Shown here one piece after another: positions 24,937 to 36,817 of a stretch of 64,000 nt of DNA. Origin of the DNA: Escherichia coli (GTDB lineage: Bacteria > Pseudomonadota > Gammaproteobacteria > Enterobacterales > Enterobacteriaceae); the NCBI RefSeq assembly GCF_024298765.1, contig NZ_CP101210.1; one strand, written 5' to 3'. Every line of letters begins with the position of its first letter. Within the stretch, counting starts at the first letter, position 1. Below the pieces are notes generated by a model. The model made no database searches. It had not been told where the DNA came from and saw nothing but the letters and a program-made list of their open reading frames with translations. Made by a program: the position numbers and the translations under genes.

Positions 24937-27102
24937 TCAGAAATCGAAGGTGACGGATGCACGCACTTCGCGGCCGCCGCCGATAAACGCACTTGGGGAA
25001 CCGTTATCGCCATCGGTACCCGATGGGAAGATAGAAGCCCAGTAATGTTTATCAAACACGTTGTTTACCACCACGCGGAAAGTGGTTGGGACGTTGCTCA
25101 CTTTCGTGGTGTAACGCGTTCCCAAATCCCATGTGGTATAGCTGCTGGCGTAAGAGGTGTTGGTATCGTTCGCCGCGCGTTTGCCCGTATAATGGACGTT
25201 AGCGCTGTAAACCCATTCCGGTATGGACGGCAAACTGTATTCCGCCAACAGATTGGCCTGCACTTTCGGCACGCCGACAACCTGTTTATTGCTGGTTGAG
25301 GCATTCGCCGTATCTTTCAGTTTCGGGTCGAGGAAGGTCACGCCGCTGTAAATATTCAGCCCCTGCCACACATTCCCGGCAGCGGTTAACTCAAGGCCGT
25401 TGTTAACCTGGTTACCCTGCTCTTTATACACGTTATCCGTATCAAGATAGGCAAACGGACGTTCCAGTCGGAACAGCGCGGCGCCTAGATTCATCTCGCC
25501 GATGTCCGATTTTAGCCCCACTTCATACTGCTTGCTGCGATACGGGTTTAGCGTTTGACCGGCATTTTTTACGCTCTCATCCGTCGGTGCGGTACCGCCC
25601 TGCTCCAGCGAATCGGCATAGCTAACGTAGGCCATTGTGTTAGGGGTAATTTTATACATCAGCGCGGCGTTCGGACTTAAACCATTTTCATCAACCTGGT
25701 TCGTTTGATTACCGTGCTTATCGTAGTTTTTAGTCTGCAGCCAGCTCTGGCTGAGATAGAACATTGCCGACCACTGCGGCGTAAATGTCACCGTATCGCC
25801 GAGCGTAACGCTCTGCTGAGTATTTACGCTGGAGCGGTATCGCGGCCCGCCGGTGCGGATTTTGCCATCGCCCTGCTCATCTATCGCATCCGGGTGATAC
25901 ATATTTGTTGTACCCCAGCTATAGCTGGAACCTGTTCCTTTGGCACTATAAAGCGACCAGACATATCCCGTGGTAGAAAGTGACAGATCGTGGCCGATAG
26001 AGCCGGTATCAATATGACCATTCAGCCCGGCGGTGTTGCTCAGGACGCGAAAACGTCCGGCAGCGGTGGAATCCTTCATCGAACGAGAGATATCGCCCTG
26101 ATTGTTGAGTATTTTACTGGAAACACTACGCATCGCGCGGTCAGCCTGCTGCCAGCCCACGCCAGCGTTCATGGACCAGTCGTCGTTAAAGTAGTGGATC
26201 AGGCGAGTGCTGATGGTATCGGTAGTGAGGTCGTTGCCCGCAGTGCTGAGCGCCAGATTTTTGTCCTTCGGATTCGGCGCAGACGGCAGTTTGACGTTCG
26301 GCCCATAGTTAAAGCTACCGACATAGCCTTTCTGGATAAATTCGTAATGGCTGGCGTCGAGCTGTAGCTGAGTGCCCGGCTGAATATTCCAGTCGAGCGC
26401 AACGGAAACGAGTTTGCGACGCAGCGTGCTGTCATCCACATTGCCTTCCCCTTCCTGATCAAGCAGGTTCACGCGATAGCCAAACCGTTTGTTTTCATCA
26501 AAATGGCCACCCAGATCGGCATGGCCGGTAAACGCACTGCGGCTTTGATAGCCCAGCGTCACTTTACGCAGCGTCTCTTCGGTTGGGCGCTTCGCCACGA
26601 AATTAAACTGCCCTGCTGGGCTCGCCGGGCCGTACAGCGCGCCGGTCAAACTGTTAAGCACATCCATGCGCTCAAGCATTTCCACCGGAAACGCGGTTGT
26701 TGAAACGATATTCAGCCCGTCCAGACGGCTGTTGGCCACCACGCTGCCCTGCATCCCCCGACTTTGCGGACGCCCGACATCCATTCCACCGCGCGCCTGC
26801 ATTTGCGTACTGGGAGAGTATTTCAGCATCTCGCTGACGCTTTGCGCCTGCTGATTTTCAATCATCTCTTTAGTTACAGTGGTGCTGGAATATGGTGTTT
26901 CGATCCAGGATTTCGTTCCCAGCGGGCCGACATCTATATCGTTCGTTTTGAAACCGGCACCGGCGGCAGAATCGGTGGTGTCGGCGGCGGTGTTGCCCGT
27001 GACAATCATTTCATCTTCAGAAGTAGACGAGGCATGAGCATGAAGCGGTATGAAAGACGCTAATGCTGGCAAAAGCGCAGCGAAAGTTATTTGAGTTTTC
27101 AT
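24937..27102 (-). CDS. TonB-dependent outer-membrane receptor
   Basis: 721 aa with a signal peptide, a TonB-box-like DEMIVTG, a plug domain, a beta-barrel and a terminal ...VTFDF. First gene of a 4-gene uptake operon like the fbp locus reported in the CFT073 aspV island. Confidence 0.85.
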   Translation of the reverse strand: MKTQITFAALLPALASFIPLHAHASSTSEDEMIVTGNTAADTTDSAAGAGFKTNDIDVGPLGTKSWIETPYSSTTVTKEMIENQQAQSVSEMLKYSPSTQMQARGGMDVGRPQSRGMQGSVVANSRLDGLNIVSTTAFPVEMLERMDVLNSLTGALYGPASPAGQFNFVAKRPTEETLRKVTLGYQSRSAFTGHADLGGHFDENKRFGYRVNLLDQEGEGNVDDSTLRRKLVSVALDWNIQPGTQLQLDASHYEFIQKGYVGSFNYGPNVKLPSAPNPKDKNLALSTAGNDLTTDTISTRLIHYFNDDWSMNAGVGWQQADRAMRSVSSKILNNQGDISRSMKDSTAAGRFRVLSNTAGLNGHIDTGSIGHDLSLSTTGYVWSLYSAKGTGSSYSWGTTNMYHPDAIDEQGDGKIRTGGPRYRSSVNTQQSVTLGDTVTFTPQWSAMFYLSQSWLQTKNYDKHGNQTNQVDENGLSPNAALMYKITPNTMAYVSYADSLEQGGTAPTDESVKNAGQTLNPYRSKQYEVGLKSDIGEMNLGAALFRLERPFAYLDTDNVYKEQGNQVNNGLELTAAGNVWQGLNIYSGVTFLDPKLKDTANASTSNKQVVGVPKVQANLLAEYSLPSIPEWVYSANVHYTGKRAANDTNTSYASSYTTWDLGTRYTTKVSNVPTTFRVVVNNVFDKHYWASIFPSGTDGDNGSPSAFIGGGREVRASVTFDF

Positions 27103-27110
27103 GAATCACT

Positions 27111-27141
27111 GATCGTTATGTAAATATTTATATTACGATCG
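27111..27141. promoter_or_regulatory. 31-bp AT-rich imperfect palindrome upstream of the receptor gene (candidate Fur-type operator)
   Basis: gatcgttatgtaaatatttatattacgatcg has symmetric GATCGT.A / T.ACGATC arms around an AT core, 9 bp from the start codon. No match to the Fur consensus was verified. Confidence 0.25.
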
Positions 27142-27352
27142 GTGCATAGGCAAAATTATGATCCAGATCACACGTGAATGTAAGTTATTTACAAATTACG
27201 CTAACCTTCTGTCTCCGCTCTTTGCAGCATAAAAGTATGGCGGCGCGTTGTTGAAAGCAGGAGCGGCCGGGTTGTCAGAAAGCTGGTTTGGACGCAAGTA
27301 ATATATAACAACTCTGATTACCGCATACTGTCAGGACAGTATCTACTTGAGC

Positions 27353-27417
27353 GTCCGCCTTTGGCACAGAGCGGACGATATCACTGAGCTGAAGGTCCGC
27401 TGAGAGCGAGGAGCGGA
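27353..27417. repeat. Composite hairpin repeat R2 (type A + type B)
   Basis: gtccgcctttggcacagagcggac (27353-27376), followed by ctgagctgaaggtccgctgagagcgaggagcgga (to 27417). Confidence 0.7.
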
Positions 27418-27584
27418 AGTAAGCATGTATCTGCTAATGCGAAAAATCACTAACGAAACATTGGATCCCCATTGTTGCCGATCTTTAGTGGCGTTCAAGA
27501 TTAGCCCCAATCCTGATTATCATTTGATTACACTGACTGAAATGATATAAAACCTAATTATCTGATATTTGTAGGGGTTTAGTA

Positions 27585-28394
27585 ATGTCACTTCCTGTTC
27601 CTTTTGGTGCAATTGTTACAGTAGTGAAGAAATGCTGGTCTACTCTTACCCAGATAATGCTGATAAAAACTTATCAACTCTCACATGAGCGCTGGGCAGT
27701 GAGACACAGGCTAGGGGCGAGCTGGCATTCCTTAGGGAATTATTTGGAGTACAGTCTACGATTTGCTCAGTTGACAGATAAAGAACCTCGTTGTTCACGT
27801 ATTGCTTTCAGAAGCAAAGAGGAACGACTGCAACAAGTTGAACTTGTTTTTGAAGCCATTGGCAGTGGCTTACGCTACCAAGAAACACTATGCATTCATG
27901 ATGTAAATAACTCACCGATAATATTAACGCTTTCAAATATTCCTACACTTGATGTACTTATTCTAGATGATGGATTCGCATTTACGGTTGAACAGTACCA
28001 GTTAAAATATTGCACGATAAAATTAATGACTGGTGAAAGTATATCTATTGACAATTCGCCCAAATATTCGCTAATGCAAAACTGGTGTCTCAATGATACA
28101 TGGAAACGGCGTTGGGGTATCATCTGGAACTGTAATGCAATTGAATGTGCCCGAAGGCGTATTGCTGAATATTGGAAATGGGGCTTTTGTCTGCCGTTAG
28201 TGGGACGCCCCCCGTTATATTCACCATCGCGAAAAGGTATTCATCTGTTTGAAGCAAAACCGTTACGCTGGTTTATGACACGCCCATGGTGTCTGAATAT
28301 CCAGTTTTGGACGGCAATTTGGTCAGGACTGTTTATTCTCAGCGATGAGAATGTCTTGCAATGGCGCTGGAAAGAGCCACCACAACAAGACTAA
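27585..28394 (+). CDS. Hypothetical protein (Trp/Cys-rich C-terminal half)
   Basis: 269-aa ORF in AT-rich DNA, bounded by hairpin repeats R2 and R3. No family recognised. Confidence 0.5.
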   Translation: MSLPVPFGAIVTVVKKCWSTLTQIMLIKTYQLSHERWAVRHRLGASWHSLGNYLEYSLRFAQLTDKEPRCSRIAFRSKEERLQQVELVFEAIGSGLRYQETLCIHDVNNSPIILTLSNIPTLDVLILDDGFAFTVEQYQLKYCTIKLMTGESISIDNSPKYSLMQNWCLNDTWKRRWGIIWNCNAIECARRRIAEYWKWGFCLPLVGRPPLYSPSRKGIHLFEAKPLRWFMTRPWCLNIQFWTAIWSGLFILSDENVLQWRWKEPPQQD

Positions 28395-28408
28395 CTTTCA
28401 CGAAGGCC

Positions 28409-28432
28409 GTCCGCTCTGAGCGAGGAGCGGAC
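28409..28432. repeat. Hairpin repeat R3 (type B)
   Basis: gtccgctctgagcgaggagcggac has a perfect 8-bp stem GTCCGCTC/GAGCGGAC and an 8-nt loop. It lies between convergent ORFs. Confidence 0.75.
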
Positions 28433-28511
28433 CTCAGTGCTGGTTAGATTAACTAGTCTAATTGTGACTACCTAATTTGAAACGATATAAAAATGGTATG
28501 ATACATGATCA

Positions 28512-29249
28512 CTAATCTTTATCTGGAATATCTCTCGCATCGTAATAATCAATCCCAAGTCCAAAGCTTAACTCAAGCCCCTCAGGACCTCCGTGGATAT
28601 CGCCAACCCCAAATGTATTTGGAGCATTATTATTTCTGAATTTTTCAAGATCATTTTTATTTGGAGGCGATTTGTCGTCATTAGAGAGATCTGGAAGTGG
28701 ATCTAACTCAAAATAATCAACTCCAGCAGGGTTATAGGCAAGGTAAAAATTTCTATAGTTGCCAGGATTTCCTAAATAATGCCCTTCTTCATATTGATAG
28801 AACTTCGAAGAATAGCTCGACTGTAAATAATCAATATCACTTCCAAAATCTTTGAACTTATGTCCAAGGGTTTTTCTCAGATATGGTACTTCAGGATGAA
28901 AATTCTCATCCTTGCTGGTTACGGAATAGAGTATCACTGTGTTATTATTATCATAAACCACTTGCAGATAGAACTTTTTGAAAGAGTAAATATACTCATG
29001 AACCCTCCCATCCTCAGAATGTTCTTCCTTCACGGGAGGGCCAAAAATTGACTCGATGTACTTTATTGACGCTCCGGTGTAAATCACATGAAGATTATCC
29101 TCTGCTTTTTTTTGCAAAAAATTATCTGCGATATGTTGATATAAATCAAACACTCCGTTCAATGCAACAAAATATCCAAGAACAGCAAGAATACCACTCA
29201 AAAAAACAGTAATTAATGATTTTTTAAGTTTTTTAGGGGGATGTGACAT
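28512..29249 (-). CDS. Hypothetical N-terminally membrane-anchored protein
   Basis: 245 aa with one TM helix (LITVFLSGILAVLGYFVAL) followed by a Tyr/Asn-rich soluble domain. AT-rich codon usage. Confidence 0.55.
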   Translation of the reverse strand: MSHPPKKLKKSLITVFLSGILAVLGYFVALNGVFDLYQHIADNFLQKKAEDNLHVIYTGASIKYIESIFGPPVKEEHSEDGRVHEYIYSFKKFYLQVVYDNNNTVILYSVTSKDENFHPEVPYLRKTLGHKFKDFGSDIDYLQSSYSSKFYQYEEGHYLGNPGNYRNFYLAYNPAGVDYFELDPLPDLSNDDKSPPNKNDLEKFRNNNAPNTFGVGDIHGGPEGLELSFGLGIDYYDARDIPDKD

Positions 29250-29434
29250 AGTTCCTCTCTTTTTGTTTTTTAATTTTTTTGGAGTGTATCATGATTTCTC
29301 TCTTATTTTTTCAAAATTCTATTTATTTCTGAATGCAAAGTAAAACGCTGACATGCAAAAAAGTCATTCTTATTTAAGATTAAGTCAAAAATTTATCGAA
29401 AGACATTCTATTAATCTTACATGAATAGAGCAAC

Positions 29435-29455
29435 GTCCGCATCTGGCACAGGACT
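29435..29455. repeat. Hairpin repeat R4 (degenerate type A)
   Basis: gtccgcatctggcacaggact shares GTCCGC-N3-TGGCACAG with R2a and R6, but the right arm is eroded. Confidence 0.5.
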
Positions 29456-29476
29456 GCTGTTGCAGCCCTGGCAACC

Positions 29477-30079
29477 TTAGACTTCAATCGATTCAGAGAT
29501 CTCTAACGCATCATCGACTTCAATGCCCAGATAACGGACTGTGCTTTCCAGTTTCTTATGGCCTAACAGAAGTTGGATCACCCTGAGATTCTTAGTTTTC
29601 TTGTAAATCAGGTAAGGTTTTGTTCTTCTCAAGGAATGTGTACTGTAAAGCGAATCTTCGAGACCAAGTTTTGCTACCCACCCATGAAAAATTCGGTTGT
29701 ATTGCCGGGTTGATATGTGTTGGTTAGTACCGACCCGAGATCGGAACAAATAGTCTTTACTGCGTAAATTGCCAAGCTTTATCAATGCAGAAACAGCTTC
29801 TCTTGTCCCTTTGGTTATCTCAAATTGGACAGGGCTGCCGGTTTTCTGTTGTAGAACCGTAGCTCTGCTTGAAACAGAGCTACCATATGCAACATCAGAT
29901 ACTTTGAGTTTGACTAGATCACAGCCTCGAAGCTTACTGTCCAAGGCCATGTTGAACAGAGCTAAATCGCGTGTTTTACCTTCCAGTTCAAGTCGGATTC
30001 GGATACCCCAGATATGAGATATCTGAAGTGGTCTTTTTTGGCCTATGATACGGTCTTTGTTCCACGGTGACGTGTTCAT
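29477..30079 (-). CDS. Small (200 aa) tyrosine recombinase / integrase-family protein
   Basis: Contains ...DSKLRGCDLVKLKVSDV...TGSPVQFEIT...YSTHSLRRTKPYLIYKKTKNLRVIQLLLGHKKLESTVRYLGIEVDD. The R...HxLR...GH...Y catalytic pattern is present. The ATG at 30079 sits 8 nt after an aggag, whereas the ORF track begins at a TTG at 30085. Confidence 0.8.
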   Translation of the reverse strand: MNTSPWNKDRIIGQKRPLQISHIWGIRIRLELEGKTRDLALFNMALDSKLRGCDLVKLKVSDVAYGSSVSSRATVLQQKTGSPVQFEITKGTREAVSALIKLGNLRSKDYLFRSRVGTNQHISTRQYNRIFHGWVAKLGLEDSLYSTHSLRRTKPYLIYKKTKNLRVIQLLLGHKKLESTVRYLGIEVDDALEISESIEV

Positions 30080-30080
30080 A

Positions 30081-30111
30081 CTCAAATCTCCTGCAATGTG
30101 GGAGATTTGAG
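30081..30111 (-). promoter_or_regulatory. Perfect 11-bp-stem hairpin covering the recombinase Shine-Dalgarno
   Basis: ctcaaatctcc-tgcaatgtg-ggagatttgag. On the coding strand the aggag SD is inside the 3' arm. Confidence 0.5.
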
Positions 30112-30118
30112 TATGGTT

Positions 30119-30143
30119 GTCCTTATGAGCGAGGCGCGGAAGC
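30119..30143. repeat. Hairpin repeat R5 (degenerate type B)
   Basis: gtccttatgagcgaggcgcggaagc resembles gtccgctgagagcgaggagcggaagt of R2. Confidence 0.45.
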
Positions 30144-30195
30144 TCACTTTAGGGCAATCTAATTCACATGTCAGAGGATTTATAAAAAGAGAATA

Positions 30196-30441
30196 GTGCA
30201 GATTTTAGGGATACTTACACTTGCTATGGCATACTTTTTGGGACCCCATCAGTTTAGGGATCTGAATCGCCACAGCTTTGGTAGGCACCTGCTTTATGGT
30301 CACGTGCACCCGAAGATCCTGCGGGTACGCATGGGTCACGAAAAGTACGAGTCTACAGAAGTTAATTTACGGTTTTTTGCGCTCGATGTGGCTGCCAGCT
30401 ACCAAGTCCAGTTTACACTGGATACAACTAACGCGCTGTAG
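30196..30441 (+). pseudogene. C-terminal remnant of a second tyrosine recombinase
   Basis: HQFRDLNRHSFGRHLLYGHVHPKILRVRMGHEKYESTEVNL resembles the H-x-x-R ... GH ... Y box of integrases, but it is degenerate and lacks the N-terminal domains. Confidence 0.45.
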
Positions 30442-30474
30442 CAACTGCGTGGTGGAAGCTGATTAAAGGAGATA

Positions 30475-31578
30475 ATGATGTTCGATGTTGACGATACTGC
30501 ACCCGATACTCCCGCCCCCCGTGAACTCAGTCAGGATGTGCAGGCGCTGATCAACAATGGTCTGGATTTTCTGGATAAAGCCCGTGAAGAGTTGGAGGCC
30601 TCGAAGCCGAAGTTCTCCGTCGTCAGTTTCTGGACTGCGGTCGAGATTTTACTGAAAGTTCCGCTGGCGCACGAACACTGGTCGTTGGTCTGCAGCCCGA
30701 AAAAGCCAATAAAAAAGCAGGCTTACCTAGCCGGTGATTTTCAGTCGGTGACCTACGAAGAAACCCGTGAAAGGCTTAAGGACGTACTTGAAAGACCCCT
30801 AGACAGAGAAACGGACAGTGCTTTTGATAAGGTCAGAAAGCACCGCAACCGCGTAGTTCATTTCTACCACCCCACTTTCACCGAGGCTGAACAACGTCAA
30901 ATACTCAAAGAACAAGCTGACGCCTGGTTTGCCCTGAACCGGTTATTAAGGGATGAATGGAAAGTTATCTTCGGTGTCAAACATAATTGGAAGCTGGCTT
31001 TCGGTGAAACTCGTCTGATTAGGGGAAACAAATTTTATGCCGAGGTGCGGTTTAAACAGGTTAAGCCTGAACTCGAGCAGCTCTCTGAAAAGAATATTCA
31101 AATCGGTAACTGCAATGAGTGCCATCAGCATGCGACGGTAACAGGGACTGAAACGACCGGTAATGAAAACCGTAAGCTTGAAGTTACGCGGTGTAAGGTT
31201 TGCACCAGTGCTGTAAGGCAAATTACCCTAGTTTGTCCAGACTGCGAAATACCTCAATTGCTACCTGAGGGAGATAGTGATTTTGAATGCGAACACTGCG
31301 ACTACACTTCGGATAGGTATAAACTGCTGGATGAGGAGTTGTTCCACAGTGTGGATGAACAGCTACTCTCCGTATTTCCTGCTGGATGTACCAATTGCAT
31401 GACTCCTGAAAGCGTATGTAAATTTGGAGACGGCTATCTTTGCACTCAGTGTTTCATCTATTACACCGAGCTTCATGTATGTGGTTGTTGCGGTCACCTG
31501 AGCGATAGCGTTCCTGAACTGAGCCATATCCGAGGATGTGAATTTTGTGATGGTGACCAACGTTATTTTGATGACTGA
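30475..31578 (+). CDS. HEPN-like (Rx4H) domain protein fused to an array of CxxC zinc ribbons
   Basis: 367 aa. The helical N-terminal half contains KVRKHRNRVVHFYH. The C-terminal half carries at least 12 Cys in CxxC pairs (CNECH, CKVC, CPDC, CEHC, CTNC, CTQC, CGCC, CEFC). A strong RBS aaaggag lies upstream. Confidence 0.6.
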   Translation: MMFDVDDTAPDTPAPRELSQDVQALINNGLDFLDKAREELEASKPKFSVVSFWTAVEILLKVPLAHEHWSLVCSPKKPIKKQAYLAGDFQSVTYEETRERLKDVLERPLDRETDSAFDKVRKHRNRVVHFYHPTFTEAEQRQILKEQADAWFALNRLLRDEWKVIFGVKHNWKLAFGETRLIRGNKFYAEVRFKQVKPELEQLSEKNIQIGNCNECHQHATVTGTETTGNENRKLEVTRCKVCTSAVRQITLVCPDCEIPQLLPEGDSDFECEHCDYTSDRYKLLDEELFHSVDEQLLSVFPAGCTNCMTPESVCKFGDGYLCTQCFIYYTELHVCGCCGHLSDSVPELSHIRGCEFCDGDQRYFDD

Positions 31579-31616
31579 ATTACCATACATAATCTAGGCT
31601 CTTCAGGGATGGGTTG

Positions 31617-31648
31617 GACAGTCCGCTCCTGGCACAGAGCGGACTGTC
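31617..31648. repeat. Hairpin repeat R6 (type A, best preserved)
   Basis: gacagtccgctc-ctggcaca-gagcggactgtc has a perfect 12-bp stem. It lies 39 bp after the stop of the HEPN-like gene. Confidence 0.75.
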
Positions 31649-31799
31649 AGATTAGATTCAGACCTGTACTCATTAGCTGATACAAATCAGCCACATATAC
31701 CTGCATTCCAAATAATTTCAGGCAGATATTATCTCCGTGAATCCCCCCGCCACCTTTCCGGTGCGCGGGGTTTTGTCTTTTTTCACCGGGAATACATGT

Positions 31800-32234
31800 A
31801 TGAATCCGTCTGATGCCATTGAGGCAATTGAAAAACCGCTCTCCTCCCTGCCTTACTCACTTTCCCGTCACATCCTGGAACATCTGCGCAAACTCACCAG
31901 CCACGAACCCGTGCCTGGCATTATGGGTAAAAGCGGGGCCGGTAAATCCTCACTCTGTAATGCACTGTTTCAGGGGGAGGTCACCCCGGTCAGTGCACTC
32001 ATGACAGCGCTTCCCGGACATGCCGCCATCCCTCTGATGACACGCCTGCAGGACGAACTGCGCACGGAGTCTGTCCGCACTCAGACCCGTGAACAGTTTA
32101 CCGGTGCGGTGGACCGGATATTTGACACGGCGGAGAGTGTCTGTGTTGCCTCTGTTGTCCGTACGGCCCTGCGCGCAGTTCGTGACACGGTGGTCTCTGT
32201 TGCCCGCGCGGTATGGAACTGGATTTTCTTCTGA
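31800..32234 (+). pseudogene. yeeP: YeeP/YkfA/YfjP-family GTPase with large internal in-frame deletion
   Basis: Translation reads MNPSDAIEAIEKPLSSLPYSLSRHILEHLRKLTSHEPV.GIMGKSGAGKSSLCNALFQGEVTPVS, joined directly to ALMTALPGHAAIPLMTRLQDELRTESVR...WNWIFF. The P-loop and C-terminus are kept and the G-domain core is missing. Confidence 0.8.
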
Positions 32235-32340
32235 ACCCGGTGGTGATGTACCAGGCTGTTGTTACAGATTTTTAACTCCATGAAAACACTATGCAAACGC
32301 AGCTATACCCGGGGTGTCCCCTTGCGTTGTGCTTCCCAAG

Positions 32341-32400
32341 TTAATAGAATACATCGATCGTTACTATCATATCGATCGTTATAAACGATCGTTTGTAGTA
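32341..32400 (+). promoter_or_regulatory. Triple-GATC repeat cluster upstream of the dynamin-like operon (candidate Dam-sensitive operator)
   Basis: ttaatagaatacatCGATCGTTActatcatatCGATCGTTAtaaaCGATCGTTtg. GATC sites are at 32356, 32374 and 32387, and the cluster ends ~62 nt before the ATG at 32452. Confidence 0.55.
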
Positions 32401-32451
32401 AATGACCTCCTCCGTGGTTGTCATGAAAATGCGTCTCAGGAAGGTTAAATA

Positions 32452-34848
32452 ATGCACGAAAAGAACATCGCCCTGCTTTGTGATGAAGCCGACCGACTTT
32501 TGCAACTGAACATTAATCTGCTCCGGCAAATGGTTGAGGAGCCAGATGTGTTATCTGACAGTAAGAACGAAAACAGACTGCTTTTTGATAAACAGAAAGC
32601 ACTGAAAAGAATTGAGGAGCTGGAGGGCGAACAAATCAAAACCGCCCGCAGGGAGATGGTGCTGGCTGTTGTCGGCACGATGAAAGCAGGCAAATCAACC
32701 ACCATCAACGCCATTGTGGGGCAGGAAATTCTGCCTAACCGTAACCGCCCCATGACCTCTGTACCGACGCTCATCCGCCACGTTCCCGGAAAAACTGAGC
32801 CGGTTCTCCATCTGGAACATATTCAGCCTGTCCGCAATTTATTAATCACACTGCAGGAAAAACTCGCCACCCCGGCAGGACAGCAGGTCGCACAGACCCT
32901 GCAGCAAACCGGGGATACCCGCGAACTGCTGGATATTCTGACGGATGATGGCTGGCTCAAAAATGAATACCACGGGGAGGAGGAAATCTTTACCGGACTG
33001 GCATCGTTAAACGATCTGGTTCGTCTTGCTGCGGCAATGGGGACTGAATTTCCTTTTGATGAATACGCAGAAGTGCAGAAACTGCCGGTGATCGACGTGG
33101 AATTCAGCCATCTGGTGGGGATGGATGCATGCCAGGGAACACTCACACTGCTGGATACCCCCGGCCCTAATGAGGCCGGACAACCGCAGATGGAAGTGAT
33201 GATGCGGGATCAACTGCAGAAAGCCTCTGCGGTTCTGGCTGTGATGGATTACACCCAGATGAACTCAAAAGCGGATGAAGACGTCCGTAAAGAGCTTAAT
33301 GCCATTGCTGACGTATCAGCCGGCCGCCTGTTTGTACTGGTCAATAAATTTGATGAGAAAGACCGCAATGGCGATGGGGCAGATGCCGTACGCCAGAAAG
33401 TTCCGGCAATGCTGAACAGCGATGTGCTGCCCGCCTCCCGCGTTTATCCCGGATCCTCACGCCAGGCATACCTGGCTAACCGTGCGCTTCATGAGTTACG
33501 GAAAAACGGAACCCTTCCTGTTGATGAAGCCTGGGTCGATGATTTTGTCAGGGAAGCCTTCGGTCGCATGAAAAAAGATTACGTCTGTAAAGACAGCGAA
33601 CTGGCAACTGAAGGGGCGACAGACCTGTGGGAAGGCTCACTTATCGATCAACTGATAACGGAAGTCATACTGAGTTCACACTCCAGAGCGGCGGCACTGG
33701 CGGTTGATTCTGCTGCCGCAAAACTGATGCAGAATGCAGAAAATGTCAGCGAATATCTGTCATTACGCCATCAGGGGCTGCAGCAAAGCATTCAGTCACT
33801 GCAGGCGAATATCACCAGCCTGCTTGCGGATATCCGGAAAATCGCGGACTGTCAGGAGCAGGTGACCGCTGATGTCAGAATGGCCATGGAGGAGATCGAT
33901 GCCAGAACCCGGGAATTACTGACGGGGGTCTGCACCTCACTGGAAGAGGAGCTGAATGACTATTTCAGAACTGGTAAACGCAAAGAACAGCAAATGTTGG
34001 AGGAAGAAGACGCAGAACAACGAAGGTCCCGGTCCGGATTATGGGGAAAGATTTCTCAATGGTCCGGTATCAACAACCCGGGCTGGGAAGATTACAGGAA
34101 ACGAGACTTTGACCCGGAAAACCCCGAGATAACACTAAATAATCGTAGGGAAGCAATTGAATATATAGAGGAAATTGAGTCAACTGTGACCAGCCTGCAC
34201 CGTGAGGCTGAAGCACAGTTCCGGCCTGAGCTGGAGAAAATCGTCAGCGGGATTGAAACAGGTTTTCGTGGCACGGCCCTGTACGCCACAGAAAACATTG
34301 CCGGTCGCATCAATGCCCGCCTGGAGGATGAGGGCTTTACCGTAAAAATCAGTTTTCCGGCAGTCAGTCAGTTACAGACCCGGCTCGCGGTAAAAACAAA
34401 TCTGAGTGCGCTTATGGAGGAAAGAACGGAGACCGTCACCCGTCGCCGTCGGCAGAGTGGCGTATGGGGAACCGTTTGTCGATGGTTTGGCACCAGTGAC
34501 CTGGGCTGGGAAAACTATGACGAGGATGTGAGTCGCAGCGTGATCAATATCAACAAGGTCAGAGAGGAAGTTATGTCACTGACCCGGGCATATTTCGGGG
34601 AGCTGCAGGCATCCATTGAGCAGGATATTAACCAGCCCGTCCGCCAGGAAATCGATGCCTTTTTCTGCGCATTCAGGGAGAAAGTTGAACAACTGCGTAA
34701 CACGCTGATTCAGAGCTCTGAAGATCATAAACGCGATCAGCAGGCACAGGAACGGCTTACCGGGAGACTTCAGGCATTAAATGAAAGGGTTCCTGAGCTC
34801 ATTACTGACAGTAAGGCGCTGAGGGAAGAGCTGGAGACAATGCTGTGA
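32452..34848 (+). CDS. Bacterial dynamin-like GTPase (YjdA/RdcA-, LeoA-, BDLP-type)
   Basis: 798 aa. G1 is VVGTMKAGKSTTINAIVG, G2 candidate is PMTSVPT, G3 is LLDTPGPNE, G4 is VLVNKFDEKD. The long helical stalk carries an internally duplicated SG.WG...W.G....GWE.Y segment. Confidence 0.85.
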   Translation: MHEKNIALLCDEADRLLQLNINLLRQMVEEPDVLSDSKNENRLLFDKQKALKRIEELEGEQIKTARREMVLAVVGTMKAGKSTTINAIVGQEILPNRNRPMTSVPTLIRHVPGKTEPVLHLEHIQPVRNLLITLQEKLATPAGQQVAQTLQQTGDTRELLDILTDDGWLKNEYHGEEEIFTGLASLNDLVRLAAAMGTEFPFDEYAEVQKLPVIDVEFSHLVGMDACQGTLTLLDTPGPNEAGQPQMEVMMRDQLQKASAVLAVMDYTQMNSKADEDVRKELNAIADVSAGRLFVLVNKFDEKDRNGDGADAVRQKVPAMLNSDVLPASRVYPGSSRQAYLANRALHELRKNGTLPVDEAWVDDFVREAFGRMKKDYVCKDSELATEGATDLWEGSLIDQLITEVILSSHSRAAALAVDSAAAKLMQNAENVSEYLSLRHQGLQQSIQSLQANITSLLADIRKIADCQEQVTADVRMAMEEIDARTRELLTGVCTSLEEELNDYFRTGKRKEQQMLEEEDAEQRRSRSGLWGKISQWSGINNPGWEDYRKRDFDPENPEITLNNRREAIEYIEEIESTVTSLHREAEAQFRPELEKIVSGIETGFRGTALYATENIAGRINARLEDEGFTVKISFPAVSQLQTRLAVKTNLSALMEERTETVTRRRRQSGVWGTVCRWFGTSDLGWENYDEDVSRSVININKVREEVMSLTRAYFGELQASIEQDINQPVRQEIDAFFCAFREKVEQLRNTLIQSSEDHKRDQQAQERLTGRLQALNERVPELITDSKALREELETML

Positions 34849-35750
34849 CTTCACCATTTATTCAACAAATTGCTGATAACCGGGTATGTCAGGTACTCAC
34901 CTGTCTTCCTGAAAAATTTGTGGTTGATTTCGCAAACGGAATCGATGTTGCACAGGAGCATATCCGCACGGCCAGAGAGCGCACGTTCTTCCGGCGTTTA
35001 AAAGAGGGACTGACCGGCGAAGGCGCTGCACGGCAGAATGCCATCAATGCTTCGCTTGCACAGGGCGTTGAGGCGTCCCTGCGCTGGCTGACGGAGCTGA
35101 CAACGTCACTTGCCACCACAAACTACGCGATTACCCGGGTAAACGACAGGGTCAGTTCACTGGTCAGTGATACTGCCAGGCTGGCGCATTATTCCGCAGA
35201 TACACGGGAGCAGTTACTCATCCTGGCCGATCAGGTTCACCATAAACTGAATCATCTTGAAGAAAAACTCCACCGTGTTGACCAGGTTCAGCGGGCGCAG
35301 TTACATCTTGAGCAGATATTCTCATGGTGGAGCGCCGGGCGATACGCGTCATTTTCCCCTGCCGGACGTTGTTATGTGGCACTTGAAGAGCTTCGCTGGG
35401 GCGCGTTTGGTGATGTGATACGTCAGGGCGAAACAGGCCAGGTTAACCAGCTACTGGATATTCTCAGACATAAAGCATTAACGCAGATGGCACAGGAGAG
35501 TGGCGGTAGTGCAACCGTGCGTCTGAACACTCTGGACTGGCTTGGTGGTCAGGGCCGGGAGCAGGCAGATAACGAGTGGCATGACGCGATTAACTGGCTG
35601 GGAGACTGGTGCAGTGAAGAGCAGCATCCGGTGATCTGGTCAACCACGCAGGCTGCAGAACACTTACCGGTTCGCATGCCTCGCCTCTGCTCTGCAGAAC
35701 GCCTCTCTGAAAGTATGGTCGATGAAATATTTCAGAAGGGGGCTGCATGA
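34845..35750 (+). CDS. RdcB (YjcZ)-like dynamin partner protein
   Basis: 301 aa, mostly helical. Its GTG start overlaps the dynamin stop (GTGA). The size and position match the yjdA-yjcZ (rdcA-rdcB) arrangement in K-12. The family call is from memory, not from alignment. Confidence 0.5.
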   Translation: MTSPFIQQIADNRVCQVLTCLPEKFVVDFANGIDVAQEHIRTARERTFFRRLKEGLTGEGAARQNAINASLAQGVEASLRWLTELTTSLATTNYAITRVNDRVSSLVSDTARLAHYSADTREQLLILADQVHHKLNHLEEKLHRVDQVQRAQLHLEQIFSWWSAGRYASFSPAGRCYVALEELRWGAFGDVIRQGETGQVNQLLDILRHKALTQMAQESGGSATVRLNTLDWLGGQGREQADNEWHDAINWLGDWCSEEQHPVIWSTTQAAEHLPVRMPRLCSAERLSESMVDEIFQKGAA

Positions 35751-36817
35751 GTACAGAAATGAAAACGGGGCTGGTGCTGTCCGGTGGCGGGGCGGTGGGC
35801 GCTTATCAGGCGGGAGTGGTTAAGGCACTGGCAGAGTGTGGTACACAGATCAGCATGGTTTCAGGGGCCAGCATTGGCGCATTCAATGGTGCCATTATCG
35901 CGGCCTCTCCCGATCTGTCAGAAGCTGCCGTACGCCTGGAGGCGCTCTGGGATCATCTGGGGAATAATCAGGTGCTGTCGGTAAACAGATTGGTTTACTT
36001 TTCATTGCTGAAAAAACTGCTCCCGGCCATGAACCTCTGCCAGCTCCCCGGACGTGCGGGCGCACTGCTTACGACGCTTCTTCACCATATATCGACAATC
36101 AACAGGTTTGACAATCTGATGACTCAGCCGTTGTTGTCAGATGGGCCCCTGACAGTGCTGATGGATCATTATCTTGATACTGATGATCTGGCTGACGGGC
36201 TACCGTTGTATGTGTCGCTGTACCCCACGGAAGGGGGAATGCAGGATATTATCGACTGCATTCGTGCTGAACTGGGTACCGGAACTACAAAAAACTCCGT
36301 TTTTCAGCATATCCAGAGCCTGCCCCACGGGCAGCAGAAAGAAGCCTTACTGGCGTCAGCAGCACTGCCCCTGCTGTTCCGTCCCCGTGAGGTACAGGGA
36401 AAAATGTACGGTGATGGTGGTATGGGCGGATGGCAAAATATGCAGGGGAATACCCCTGTGACGCCACTGGTGGATGCCGGATGCAATATGGTGATTGTGT
36501 CGCATCTGAGTGACGGTTCTTTATGGGATCGCCGGGCTTTTCCGGACACCACAATCCTTGAAATCCGTCCCCGGAAAAAGCTGAAACAAACAGGGGAAGA
36601 AGGCAAAAGTGGCGGTCTGCTCAGTTTTACATCGGCACATATCGACACCTGGCGTCAGCAGGGCTATGAAGACACGATGCTGGCGATGGAGCATATCCGG
36701 AAACCACTGGAGGCGCGTCAGGCACTGACCCGGTCAGAGGCGGTGTTGCAGAAAAGTCTGGAGAAAACGGAAGAGGCAGATTTGGCACTGAGAAACGCGA
36801 TGGCCCGGATTAAATAA
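35747..36817 (+). CDS. Patatin-like phospholipase
   Basis: 356 aa with the oxyanion motif LSGGGAVGAYQAG, nucleophile elbow GASIG and catalytic Asp motif YGDGGMGG. Its start overlaps the previous stop (ATGA). Confidence 0.85.
   Translation: MSTEMKTGLVLSGGGAVGAYQAGVVKALAECGTQISMVSGASIGAFNGAIIAASPDLSEAAVRLEALWDHLGNNQVLSVNRLVYFSLLKKLLPAMNLCQLPGRAGALLTTLLHHISTINRFDNLMTQPLLSDGPLTVLMDHYLDTDDLADGLPLYVSLYPTEGGMQDIIDCIRAELGTGTTKNSVFQHIQSLPHGQQKEALLASAALPLLFRPREVQGKMYGDGGMGGWQNMQGNTPVTPLVDAGCNMVIVSHLSDGSLWDRRAFPDTTILEIRPRKKLKQTGEEGKSGGLLSFTSAHIDTWRQQGYEDTMLAMEHIRKPLEARQALTRSEAVLQKSLEKTEEADLALRNAMARIK

What the first reader, a model, noticed from the sequence alone, without database searches (positions are those of the whole stretch)
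30475..31578. HEPN-like (Rx4H) domain fused to an array of about six CxxC zinc ribbons: orphan putative nuclease/sensor
Seen: the helical N-terminal ~170 aa contain KVRKHRNRVVHFYH (R-N-x-x-x-H, the HEPN RNase catalytic spacing). The C-terminal ~170 aa contain CNECH, CKVC, CPDC, CEHC, CTNC...C...CTQC, CGCC and CEFC. There is a strong RBS. The gene is flanked by hairpin repeats and sits next to recombinase remnants. Established: HEPN domains are the RNase effectors of many abortive-infection, TA and CRISPR-ancillary proteins, and zinc ribbons often serve as nucleic-acid or phage-protein sensors. Inference: a single-gene Abi-type defence candidate.
Basis: partly seen in the sequence, partly recalled or inferred. 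Interest (0 to 1): 0.6.

Follow-up and report, generated by a model that had tools for sequence, protein, structure and literature searches.

The report
Known HEPN–zinc-ribbon phage defence gene HEC-08

Summary
The ORF is real, but its likely start is 30478 (366 aa), not 30475. From that second Met the protein is identical at all 366 residues to WP_001313577.1. That is the E. coli ECOR52 representative of PADLOC family HEC-08, which Payne et al. (bioRxiv 10.1101/2024.01.29.577857) cloned and showed to protect E. coli from phages.

I confirmed the main features independently:
- The PADLOC HEC-08 model matches at E = 1e-173.
- H122-R-N-R-x-V-H128 is invariant in 46 homologues.
- 16 invariant cysteines form eight CxxC knuckles, so four Cys4 zinc ribbons rather than six.

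The gene is not an orphan. The C-terminal profile finds 454 clusters at 50% identity, and homologues sit on 203 plasmids. RNase activity, the trigger, an abortive-infection phenotype and the role of the zinc ribbons remain untested.

One side observation may be new. The gene and a 202-aa tyrosine integrase form a 2.2-kb module bounded by a repeated 17-nt core inside a hairpin. The module occurs at ≥99% identity in five unrelated flanks, including two other genera.

Verdict: already known; interpretation supported.

The parts
30478..31578 (+). HEC-08 coding sequence (366 aa plus stop). An alternative ATG lies 3 nt upstream at 30475.
   Evidence: ORF. Identical at 366/366 residues to the tested HEC-08 protein WP_001313577.1. 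PADLOC HEC-08 E = 1.1e-173. RefSeq start in Nissle 1917 corresponds to 30478.
30466..30471 (+). Shine-Dalgarno box AAGGAG, 6 nt before ATG 30478
   Evidence: Read directly from the sequence.
30523..30972 (+). N-terminal HEPN domain (DUF3644 type)
30841..30861 (+). Catalytic-type motif H122-R123-N124-R125-V-V-H128 (Rx4H)
   Evidence: Invariant in 46 homologues. The H128 mutant loses defence (paper).
31111..31548 (+). C-terminal array of eight CxxC knuckles, read as four Cys4 zinc ribbons
31617..31648 (+). Perfect 12-bp hairpin containing the core GTCCGCTCCTGGCACAG. It marks the right boundary of the 2.2-kb module.
   Evidence: (I5).
29435..29451 (+). Left copy of the core (GTCCGCATCTGGCACAG). 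It marks the left boundary of the module.
   Evidence: (D1).
29477..30079 (-). Intact 202-aa (RefSeq 200-aa) tyrosine integrase, the module's partner gene
   Evidence: Pfam Phage_integrase E = 5.5e-19. RefSeq names it 'site-specific integrase' WP_001305361.1. It is linked to HEC-08 in 335 of 342 HEC-08-positive E. coli genomes.
30238..30441 (+). Remnant (C-terminal ~67 codons) of a different, 254-aa tyrosine recombinase gene
   Evidence: tblastn 62-72% identity to the 3' end of full-length recombinase ORFs directly upstream of HEC-08 homologues in L002, L003, L005 and L011. Pfam Phage_integrase on the L005 ORF.
30077..30115 (.). 15-bp perfect inverted repeat overlapping the integrase start region
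   Evidence: (I1).

Best explanation
The gene is HEC-08, a stand-alone anti-phage defence protein.

Shown (by others, on this exact protein): expressing this one gene in E. coli K-12 lowers plaquing of some phages by orders of magnitude. The histidine of the Rx4H motif (H128) is required.

Shown here: the N-terminal ~200 residues form a HEPN helical bundle with an invariant HRNRxVH motif. The C-terminal ~160 residues form a compact array of four Cys4 zinc ribbons. The two domains always occur together in this family.

Inferred: as in other HEPN enzymes, two copies probably pair so that their Rx4H motifs form one metal-independent RNase site. The zinc-ribbon array probably holds the enzyme inactive, or confers specificity, until it meets a phage-derived protein or nucleic acid. 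RNA cleavage then stops phage production, possibly at the cost of cell growth (abortive infection).

In this genome the gene travels with a small tyrosine integrase as a 2.2-kb module inside the tRNA-Asp (aspV) island.
For: - Identity to the tested protein is 366/366 residues.
- The paper reports the defence phenotype and loss of defence in the H128 mutant.
- PADLOC HEC-08 matches at E = 1.1e-173 and its DUF3644 model at E = 2.8e-71.
- The Rx4H motif and 16 cysteines are invariant.
- The C-terminal model is confident, pLDDT 90.7.
- Nearly all of the 150 best of the 454 family clusters are 340-375 aa with the array in the C-terminal half. All 15 shorter or atypical hits that I read are N-terminal truncations of the same architecture or carry the same HEPN motif.
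- The same HEPN type is joined to other C-termini in other defence candidates (PDC-S64, Ishtar). This fits a constant effector with a variable specificity module.
- Homologues in other genera sit next to Gabija, Mokosh and Hachiman.
- Homologues are on 203 plasmids and in no phage record.
Against: - RNase activity, zinc binding, dimerisation, the trigger and an abortive phenotype have not been measured. The paper reports only plaque assays and one point mutant.
- The source is a preprint. I found no peer-reviewed version in the library.
- The zinc-ribbon array was never found attached to a different effector, so its role as a 'sensor' is only an analogy.
- Current Pfam and NCBIfam give no significant hit.
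- In this window no recognised defence system lies beside the gene. PADLOC found nothing significant in the neighbouring genes.
Confidence: 0.85

Rival explanations
1. The protein defends by degrading phage transcripts or another phage RNA selectively. The zinc ribbons act as the RNA-binding module, and the infected cell survives, so this would not be abortive infection.
For: - Zinc ribbons commonly bind nucleic acids. The only weak structural and sequence echoes of the array are ribosomal, primase and TFIIS-type ribbons.
- The cloned gene was maintained in E. coli K-12 under its native promoter plus an inducible promoter, and the paper reports no toxicity.
Against: - Most characterised HEPN defence RNases (Csm6, HepT, AbiV-type; structural neighbours) act non-specifically once activated.
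- No RNA-binding or survival data exist for HEC-08.
Confidence: 0.25
2. Its main natural target is conjugative plasmids or other mobile elements rather than phages. This would resemble the Ishtar HEPN proteins, which clear plasmid RP4.
For: Ishtar proteins carry an N-terminal DUF3644 or DUF4145 HEPN domain plus an uncharacterised C-terminal domain, and they cause plasmid loss.
Against: - HEC-08 has a measured anti-phage phenotype.
- Ishtar's C-terminal domain is described as beta-sheets plus three helices, not zinc ribbons.
- HEC-08 homologues are themselves carried on 203 plasmids, 111 of them conjugative.
Confidence: 0.1
3. It is an addiction-type toxin that stabilises the 2.2-kb integrase module or the island, and phage protection is a by-product.
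For: - HEPN domains are the toxins of HepT/MNT systems, which are structural neighbours (7ae2, 8xdj, 5yep).
- The gene rides on a mobile module.
Against: - No MNT or other small antitoxin gene is adjacent.
- The single gene was cloned and maintained alone.
- None of the 13 related loci shows a conserved partner other than a recombinase.
Confidence: 0.05
4. It is a fragment or relative of the type I restriction subunit HsdR, as many NCBI records name its homologues.
For: - NCBI and UniRef label many homologues 'hsdR'.
- There is a weak NCBIfam hit to the N-terminal part of a type I endonuclease model (E = 0.027, model positions 60-126 of 1123).
Against: - The protein is 366 aa with no helicase or nuclease domain in Pfam or NCBIfam.
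- The 340-375 aa architecture is the family norm.
- The resemblance is limited to the HEPN domain, which Anantharaman et al. noted in restriction-modification contexts.
Confidence: 0.01

Closest known systems
HEC-08 (PADLOC PDLC04162; Payne et al., bioRxiv 10.1101/2024.01.29.577857)
   Same: It is the same protein. It is identical at 366/366 residues to the tested E. coli ECOR52 representative, with the same DUF3644 HEPN domain plus C-terminal zinc ribbons and the same H128.
   Different: Nothing differs at the protein level. Here the gene is not embedded in an Hma system. It lies in the aspV island next to a small integrase.
EC042_2821 / DUF3644 family of HEPN domains (Anantharaman et al. 2013, PMC3710099)
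   Same: It is a HEPN domain with the Rx4-6H motif. The family is described as fused to zinc-ribbon, wHTH and restriction-endonuclease domains and as occurring in restriction-modification contexts.
   Different: That work was purely computational and covers several architectures. This protein has only the HEPN domain and four zinc ribbons.
HepT/MNT toxin-antitoxin HEPN toxins (e.g. SO_3166, PDB 5yep; 7ae2)
   Different: No MNT antitoxin partner is present. This protein is about 200 residues longer and has a zinc-ribbon array.
Ishtar anti-plasmid proteins (bioRxiv 10.64898/2026.07.06.735840)
   Same: They are single-gene defences with an N-terminal DUF3644 or DUF4145 HEPN domain and an uncharacterised C-terminal domain.
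   Different: They come from A. baumannii. Their C-terminal domain is described as beta-sheets plus three helices, not zinc ribbons, and the phenotype is plasmid loss.
AbiV, AbiA-HEPN and Csm6/Csx1 HEPN RNases
   Different: They have different sensor or regulatory domains (CARF, reverse-transcriptase-like polymerase) and no detectable sequence similarity.
PADLOC candidate PDC-S64
   Same: It shares the N-terminal HEPN region (E = 3.4e-8, residues 27-160).
   Different: The match stops at the HEPN domain, so the C-terminal part differs.

Membership tests
HEC-08 (PADLOC-DB) | Full-length match to the HEC-08 profile | tested here: met
   E = 1.1e-173, residues 13-366 against profile positions 7-357 of 358.
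HEC-08 (PADLOC-DB) | N-terminal DUF3644-type HEPN domain with a conserved Rx4-6H motif | tested here: met
HEC-08 (PADLOC-DB) | C-terminal zinc-ribbon or zinc-finger-like domains | tested here: met
   Eight invariant CxxC motifs. Beta-hairpin model with pLDDT 90.7.
HEC-08 (PADLOC-DB) | Confers phage resistance as a single gene, dependent on H128 | not testable with these tools
   Reported for the identical protein by Payne et al.. Not reproducible in silico.
Hma-embedded gene (genomic context class, not a protein family) | The gene lies between the helicase, methylase and ATPase genes of an Hma system | tested here: not met
   RefSeq annotation 20 kb either side in Nissle 1917 shows an integrase, a dynamin/RdcB/patatin operon and an iron-uptake operon, but no Hma genes. 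Embedding was the route to discovery, not a requirement for the protein family.
HEPN superfamily | Four-helix up-and-down HEPN bundle | tested here: met
HEPN superfamily | Metal-independent RNase activity from a dimeric Rx4-6H site | not testable with these tools
   The motif is present and invariant. No biochemistry has been reported.
HepT/MNT type II or VII toxin-antitoxin | Adjacent MNT nucleotidyltransferase antitoxin gene | tested here: not met
   No such ORF or annotation is adjacent.
Type I restriction endonuclease HsdR (name used by NCBI for homologues) | SF2 helicase motor plus nuclease domain, about 1000 aa | tested here: not met
   The protein is 366 aa with no helicase or nuclease hit in Pfam or NCBIfam.
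Ishtar | HEPN N-terminus plus a C-terminal domain of 5-7 beta-strands and three helices; causes plasmid loss | tested here: inconclusive
   The HEPN type matches by name. The C-terminus here is four zinc ribbons with only short helices.
Integron (considered for the cassette-like context) | IntI-type integrase and attC sites | tested here: not met
   The integrase is 202 aa with only a generic Phage_integrase match. The repeats are 24-nt hairpins, and Rfam finds nothing. attC-specific models were not run.

The most novel reading that the evidence does not exclude
HEC-08 here is the cargo of a previously undescribed kind of very small integrative element. The element consists of a 200-aa tyrosine integrase plus one or a few defence-type genes, and it is delimited by direct copies of a 17-nt core (GTCCGCyyCTGGCACAG). 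That core usually lies in a 24-nt hairpin, and the hairpin is often doubled. Such hairpins also separate neighbouring single genes, giving an integron-like cassette array in E. coli islands and prophages. The same integrase family carries other cargo in about 570 further E. coli genomes, for example a restriction endonuclease or a hypothetical protein followed by a GIY-YIG nuclease.
Probability: 0.35. Interest if true: 0.55.

Novelty: already known. Interest (0 to 1): 0.18.

Why it matters
For the gene itself the value is confirmation. A reader working from raw sequence alone correctly picked out a defence gene that experiments have since validated. RefSeq still calls it 'hypothetical protein' in Nissle 1917, or mislabels it 'hsdR' elsewhere.

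The open questions are mechanistic. What RNA does it cut? What switches it on? What do the four invariant zinc ribbons do, given that they have no solved structural counterpart?

The mobile-module observation, if it holds, would describe how single-gene defences such as this one move between islands, plasmids and genera.

Tried and rejected
- Pfam-A and NCBIfam gave only sub-threshold hits. The best were HepT-like_2 (E = 0.13) and DS11_antiphage (E = 0.023).
- A PDB sequence-profile search gave nothing below E = 0.009, only generic zinc fingers and ribbons.
- A search for the zinc-ribbon array on other effectors found nearly all listed hits with the typical length and domain position. All 15 shorter or atypical hits that I read are N-terminal truncations of the same architecture or carry the same HEPN motif.
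- Rfam finds no RNA family in 27000-32500.
- No homologue occurs in 50,697 phage records.
- PADLOC on neighbouring genes (hyp269, ETEC_3214, the integrase, cassette genes of L015 and L016, the dynamin/RdcB/patatin operon) gave nothing significant.
- I looked for flanking repeats around the 254-aa-recombinase + HEC-08 pairs in L002, L003, L005 and L011. None were convincing.
- The sigma-70 scan found no promoter-like site on the + strand between the integrase and the HEC-08 start. The total number of sites found matched the shuffled expectation.
- The 'hsdR' label is rejected, because the protein has no helicase or nuclease domain.

Full report
**1. What is there**

An ORF runs from 30475 to 31578 on the + strand (367 codons). 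The AAGGAG box at 30466-30471 is 6 nt from the second ATG (30478) and 3 nt from the first. RefSeq starts the gene at the second ATG (366 aa).

The sequence contains KVRKHRNRVVHFYH, in which R123-N-R-V-V-H128 is an Rx4H motif. It also contains eight CxxC motifs between residues 212 and 357.

**2. It is a catalogued and tested gene**

Pfam-A and NCBIfam give only sub-threshold hits. PADLOC-DB gives a full-length match to HEC-08 (E = 1.1e-173) and to its DUF3644 model over residues 17-166 (E = 2.8e-71).

The DNA is 100% identical to a 'hypothetical protein' gene in Nissle 1917, clone D i14, ATCC 25922 and others, and at least 99% identical in 342 of 5426 complete E. coli genomes in all.

Payne et al. 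[quoted passage not shown] Seven of their nine candidates reduced plaquing of at least two phages by orders of magnitude. HEC-08 is one of the seven, because only HEC-01 and HEC-09 failed. Mutation of H128 in the Rx4-6H motif 'negated defence'.

Their Table S2 gives the cloned representative as WP_001313577.1 from E. coli ECOR52, with its sequence. It is identical at all 366 residues to the window protein read from the second Met. The 399 nt of DNA printed in the table map to 30478 onward. H128 is the H of RNRVVH.

**3. Independent checks**

- **Conservation.** An alignment of 46 homologues (43-88% identity) shows invariant H122, R123, N124, R125, V127 and H128. It also shows exactly 16 invariant cysteines in eight CxxC pairs.
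- **Ribbon count.** The CxxC spacing, including two C-x2-C-x14-C-x2-C units, fits four sequential Cys4 ribbons. The weak profile echoes to eS27 and uS14 ribbons agree with this. I could not inspect the model coordinates, so the pairing of knuckles is inferred.

**4. Family and architecture**

The word-indexed search found 267 homologues, mostly from Enterobacterales. NCBI mislabels many of them 'hsdR'.

An exhaustive profile search with the C-terminal domain found 454 clusters at 50% identity. Nearly all of the 150 best hits are 340-375 aa with the array in the C-terminal half. I read 15 shorter or atypical hits. They start inside the HEPN domain or its last helices (for example 'MHFYH...'), or carry the same HEPN motif, so they are truncated calls of the same architecture. 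The array was thus not seen attached to any other effector.

The same HEPN type does occur with other C-termini, in PDC-S64 and in the Ishtar anti-plasmid proteins. Anantharaman et al. (2013) had already listed DUF3644/EC042_2821 as a HEPN family fused to zinc-ribbon and other domains in restriction-modification contexts.

Homologues occur on 203 plasmids, 111 of them conjugative, and in no phage record. In other genera they sit beside Gabija (L009), Mokosh (L007), Hachiman (L013) and a 1647-aa NACHT protein (L006).

**5. Mechanism**

Shown: single-gene defence that requires H128 (the paper), the HEPN fold, an invariant Rx4H motif, and four invariant zinc sites.

Inferred from what is established for HEPN enzymes (my own knowledge, plus Anantharaman 2013):
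- a homodimer that forms a composite metal-independent RNase site;
- activation or targeting through the zinc-ribbon array;
- RNA cleavage that blocks phage production.

The paper does not report RNase assays, toxicity, abortive infection or zinc-ribbon mutants. The 'Abi-type' part of the interpretation therefore remains untested.

**6. Surroundings**

The gene lies in the tRNA-Asp (aspV) island.

- Upstream on the minus strand is an intact small tyrosine integrase (29477-30079).
- Between that integrase and HEC-08, the frame 30238-30441 is the C-terminal remnant of a different recombinase. Its full-length 254-aa (223-aa in L003) relatives lie directly upstream of HEC-08 homologues in L002, L003, L005 and L011.
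- Downstream is a truncated GTPase gene, followed by a dynamin / RdcB-like / patatin operon.

**7. Side observation: a 2.2-kb module**

The stretch 29432-31644 (integrase + remnant + HEC-08) recurs at 99% identity or better with the same ends in four other, unrelated flanks:
- the E. coli TL012 thrW island (L015);
- E. coli CUVET24 (L016);
- the Huaxiibacter chinensis chromosome (L006);
- the Pantoea ananatis plasmid pPANA10 (L020).

Both ends carry the core GTCCGCyyCTGGCACAG. At the right end in the window the core is the left arm and loop of a perfect hairpin (31617-31648).

Further evidence on the core and hairpin:
- The core occurs five times in the window against 0.11 expected, and it brackets neighbouring single genes.
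- The hairpins are often doubled.
- A 66-nt probe across the hairpin hits 1986 genomes, and the matches break at the hairpin.
- 335 of the 342 HEC-08-positive genomes carry the whole module.
- About 570 further genomes carry a 90-95% identical integrase segment with other cargo.
- In two of three such loci examined, a right-hand core follows the cargo.

This suggests a family of mini integrative elements or cassette arrays. Excision and integration are untested. I found no description of such elements in the literature searches.

**8. Verdict**

The gene is already known and experimentally validated. Interest in the finding as such is low. The unexplained mechanism and the mobile-module context are what remain worth pursuing.

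Noticed in passing
window 29432-31644; also L006, L015, L016, L020: The integrase + HEC-08 pair is a discrete 2.2-kb module. It occurs at ≥99% identity with identical ends in five unrelated flanks, including Huaxiibacter chinensis and a Pantoea ananatis megaplasmid. Both ends carry the direct-repeat core GTCCGCyyCTGGCACAG.
   Followed up: partly
window 15095, 27353/27395, 28409-28432, 29435, 31617-31648: A 24-nt hairpin (GTCCGCTC-loop-GAGCGGAC), often doubled, recurs in intergenic gaps. It brackets single genes (hyp269 at 27585-28394, ETEC_3214 at 28512-29249). The core occurs five times against 0.11 expected. A similar element is present in 1986 of 5426 E. coli genomes, is unannotated and matches no Rfam family.
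   Followed up: partly
L017, L018, L019 (E. coli M7424, XJ34, N1083): Integrases 90-94% identical in DNA to the one at 29477-30079 sit next to other cargo. Examples are a CBS-domain protein, a restriction endonuclease, and a 449-aa hypothetical protein followed by a GIY-YIG nuclease inside a lambdoid prophage. About 570 genomes carry such integrase-only matches.
   Followed up: partly
window 30238-30441: This frame is the C-terminal remnant of a 254-aa tyrosine recombinase. In Dryocola, Enterobacter soli (223-aa ORF), Citrobacter freundii and Phytobacter the full-length gene lies directly upstream of the HEC-08 homologue on the same strand. HEC-08 has therefore been linked to two different recombinase families.
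   Followed up: partly
window 31800-32234: This is a truncated GTPase gene (yeeP/ykfA-like, P-loop GKSGAGKSS). Other E. coli genomes have about 440 more bases inside it, where it is annotated 'GTPase family protein'.
   Followed up: partly
window 32452-36817: An operon encodes a 798-aa dynamin-family protein, a YjcZ/RdcB-like protein and a patatin-like phospholipase. PADLOC gives only weak hits (LeoBC E = 1.6e-4; phospholipase effector E = 1.6e-4). Its function here is unclear.
   Followed up: partly
homologues P0002-P0118; plasmid hits H117-H130: NCBI and UniRef name many HEC-08 homologues 'hsdR', although they are about 366 aa with no helicase or nuclease domain. This looks like a propagated misannotation, probably seeded by the HEPN domain that some type I restriction subunits share.
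   Followed up: partly
L015 6302-6883 (E. coli TL012): In the thrW island of TL012 the module lies immediately next to a 193-aa DUF4145 protein, according to the RefSeq annotation. DUF4145 is another HEPN family.
   Followed up: no
window 30077-30115: A perfect 15-bp inverted repeat (CATACTCAAATCTCC / GGAGATTTGAGTATG) overlaps the integrase start codon region. It is conserved wherever the integrase occurs and could be an operator or a recombinase-binding site.
   Followed up: no
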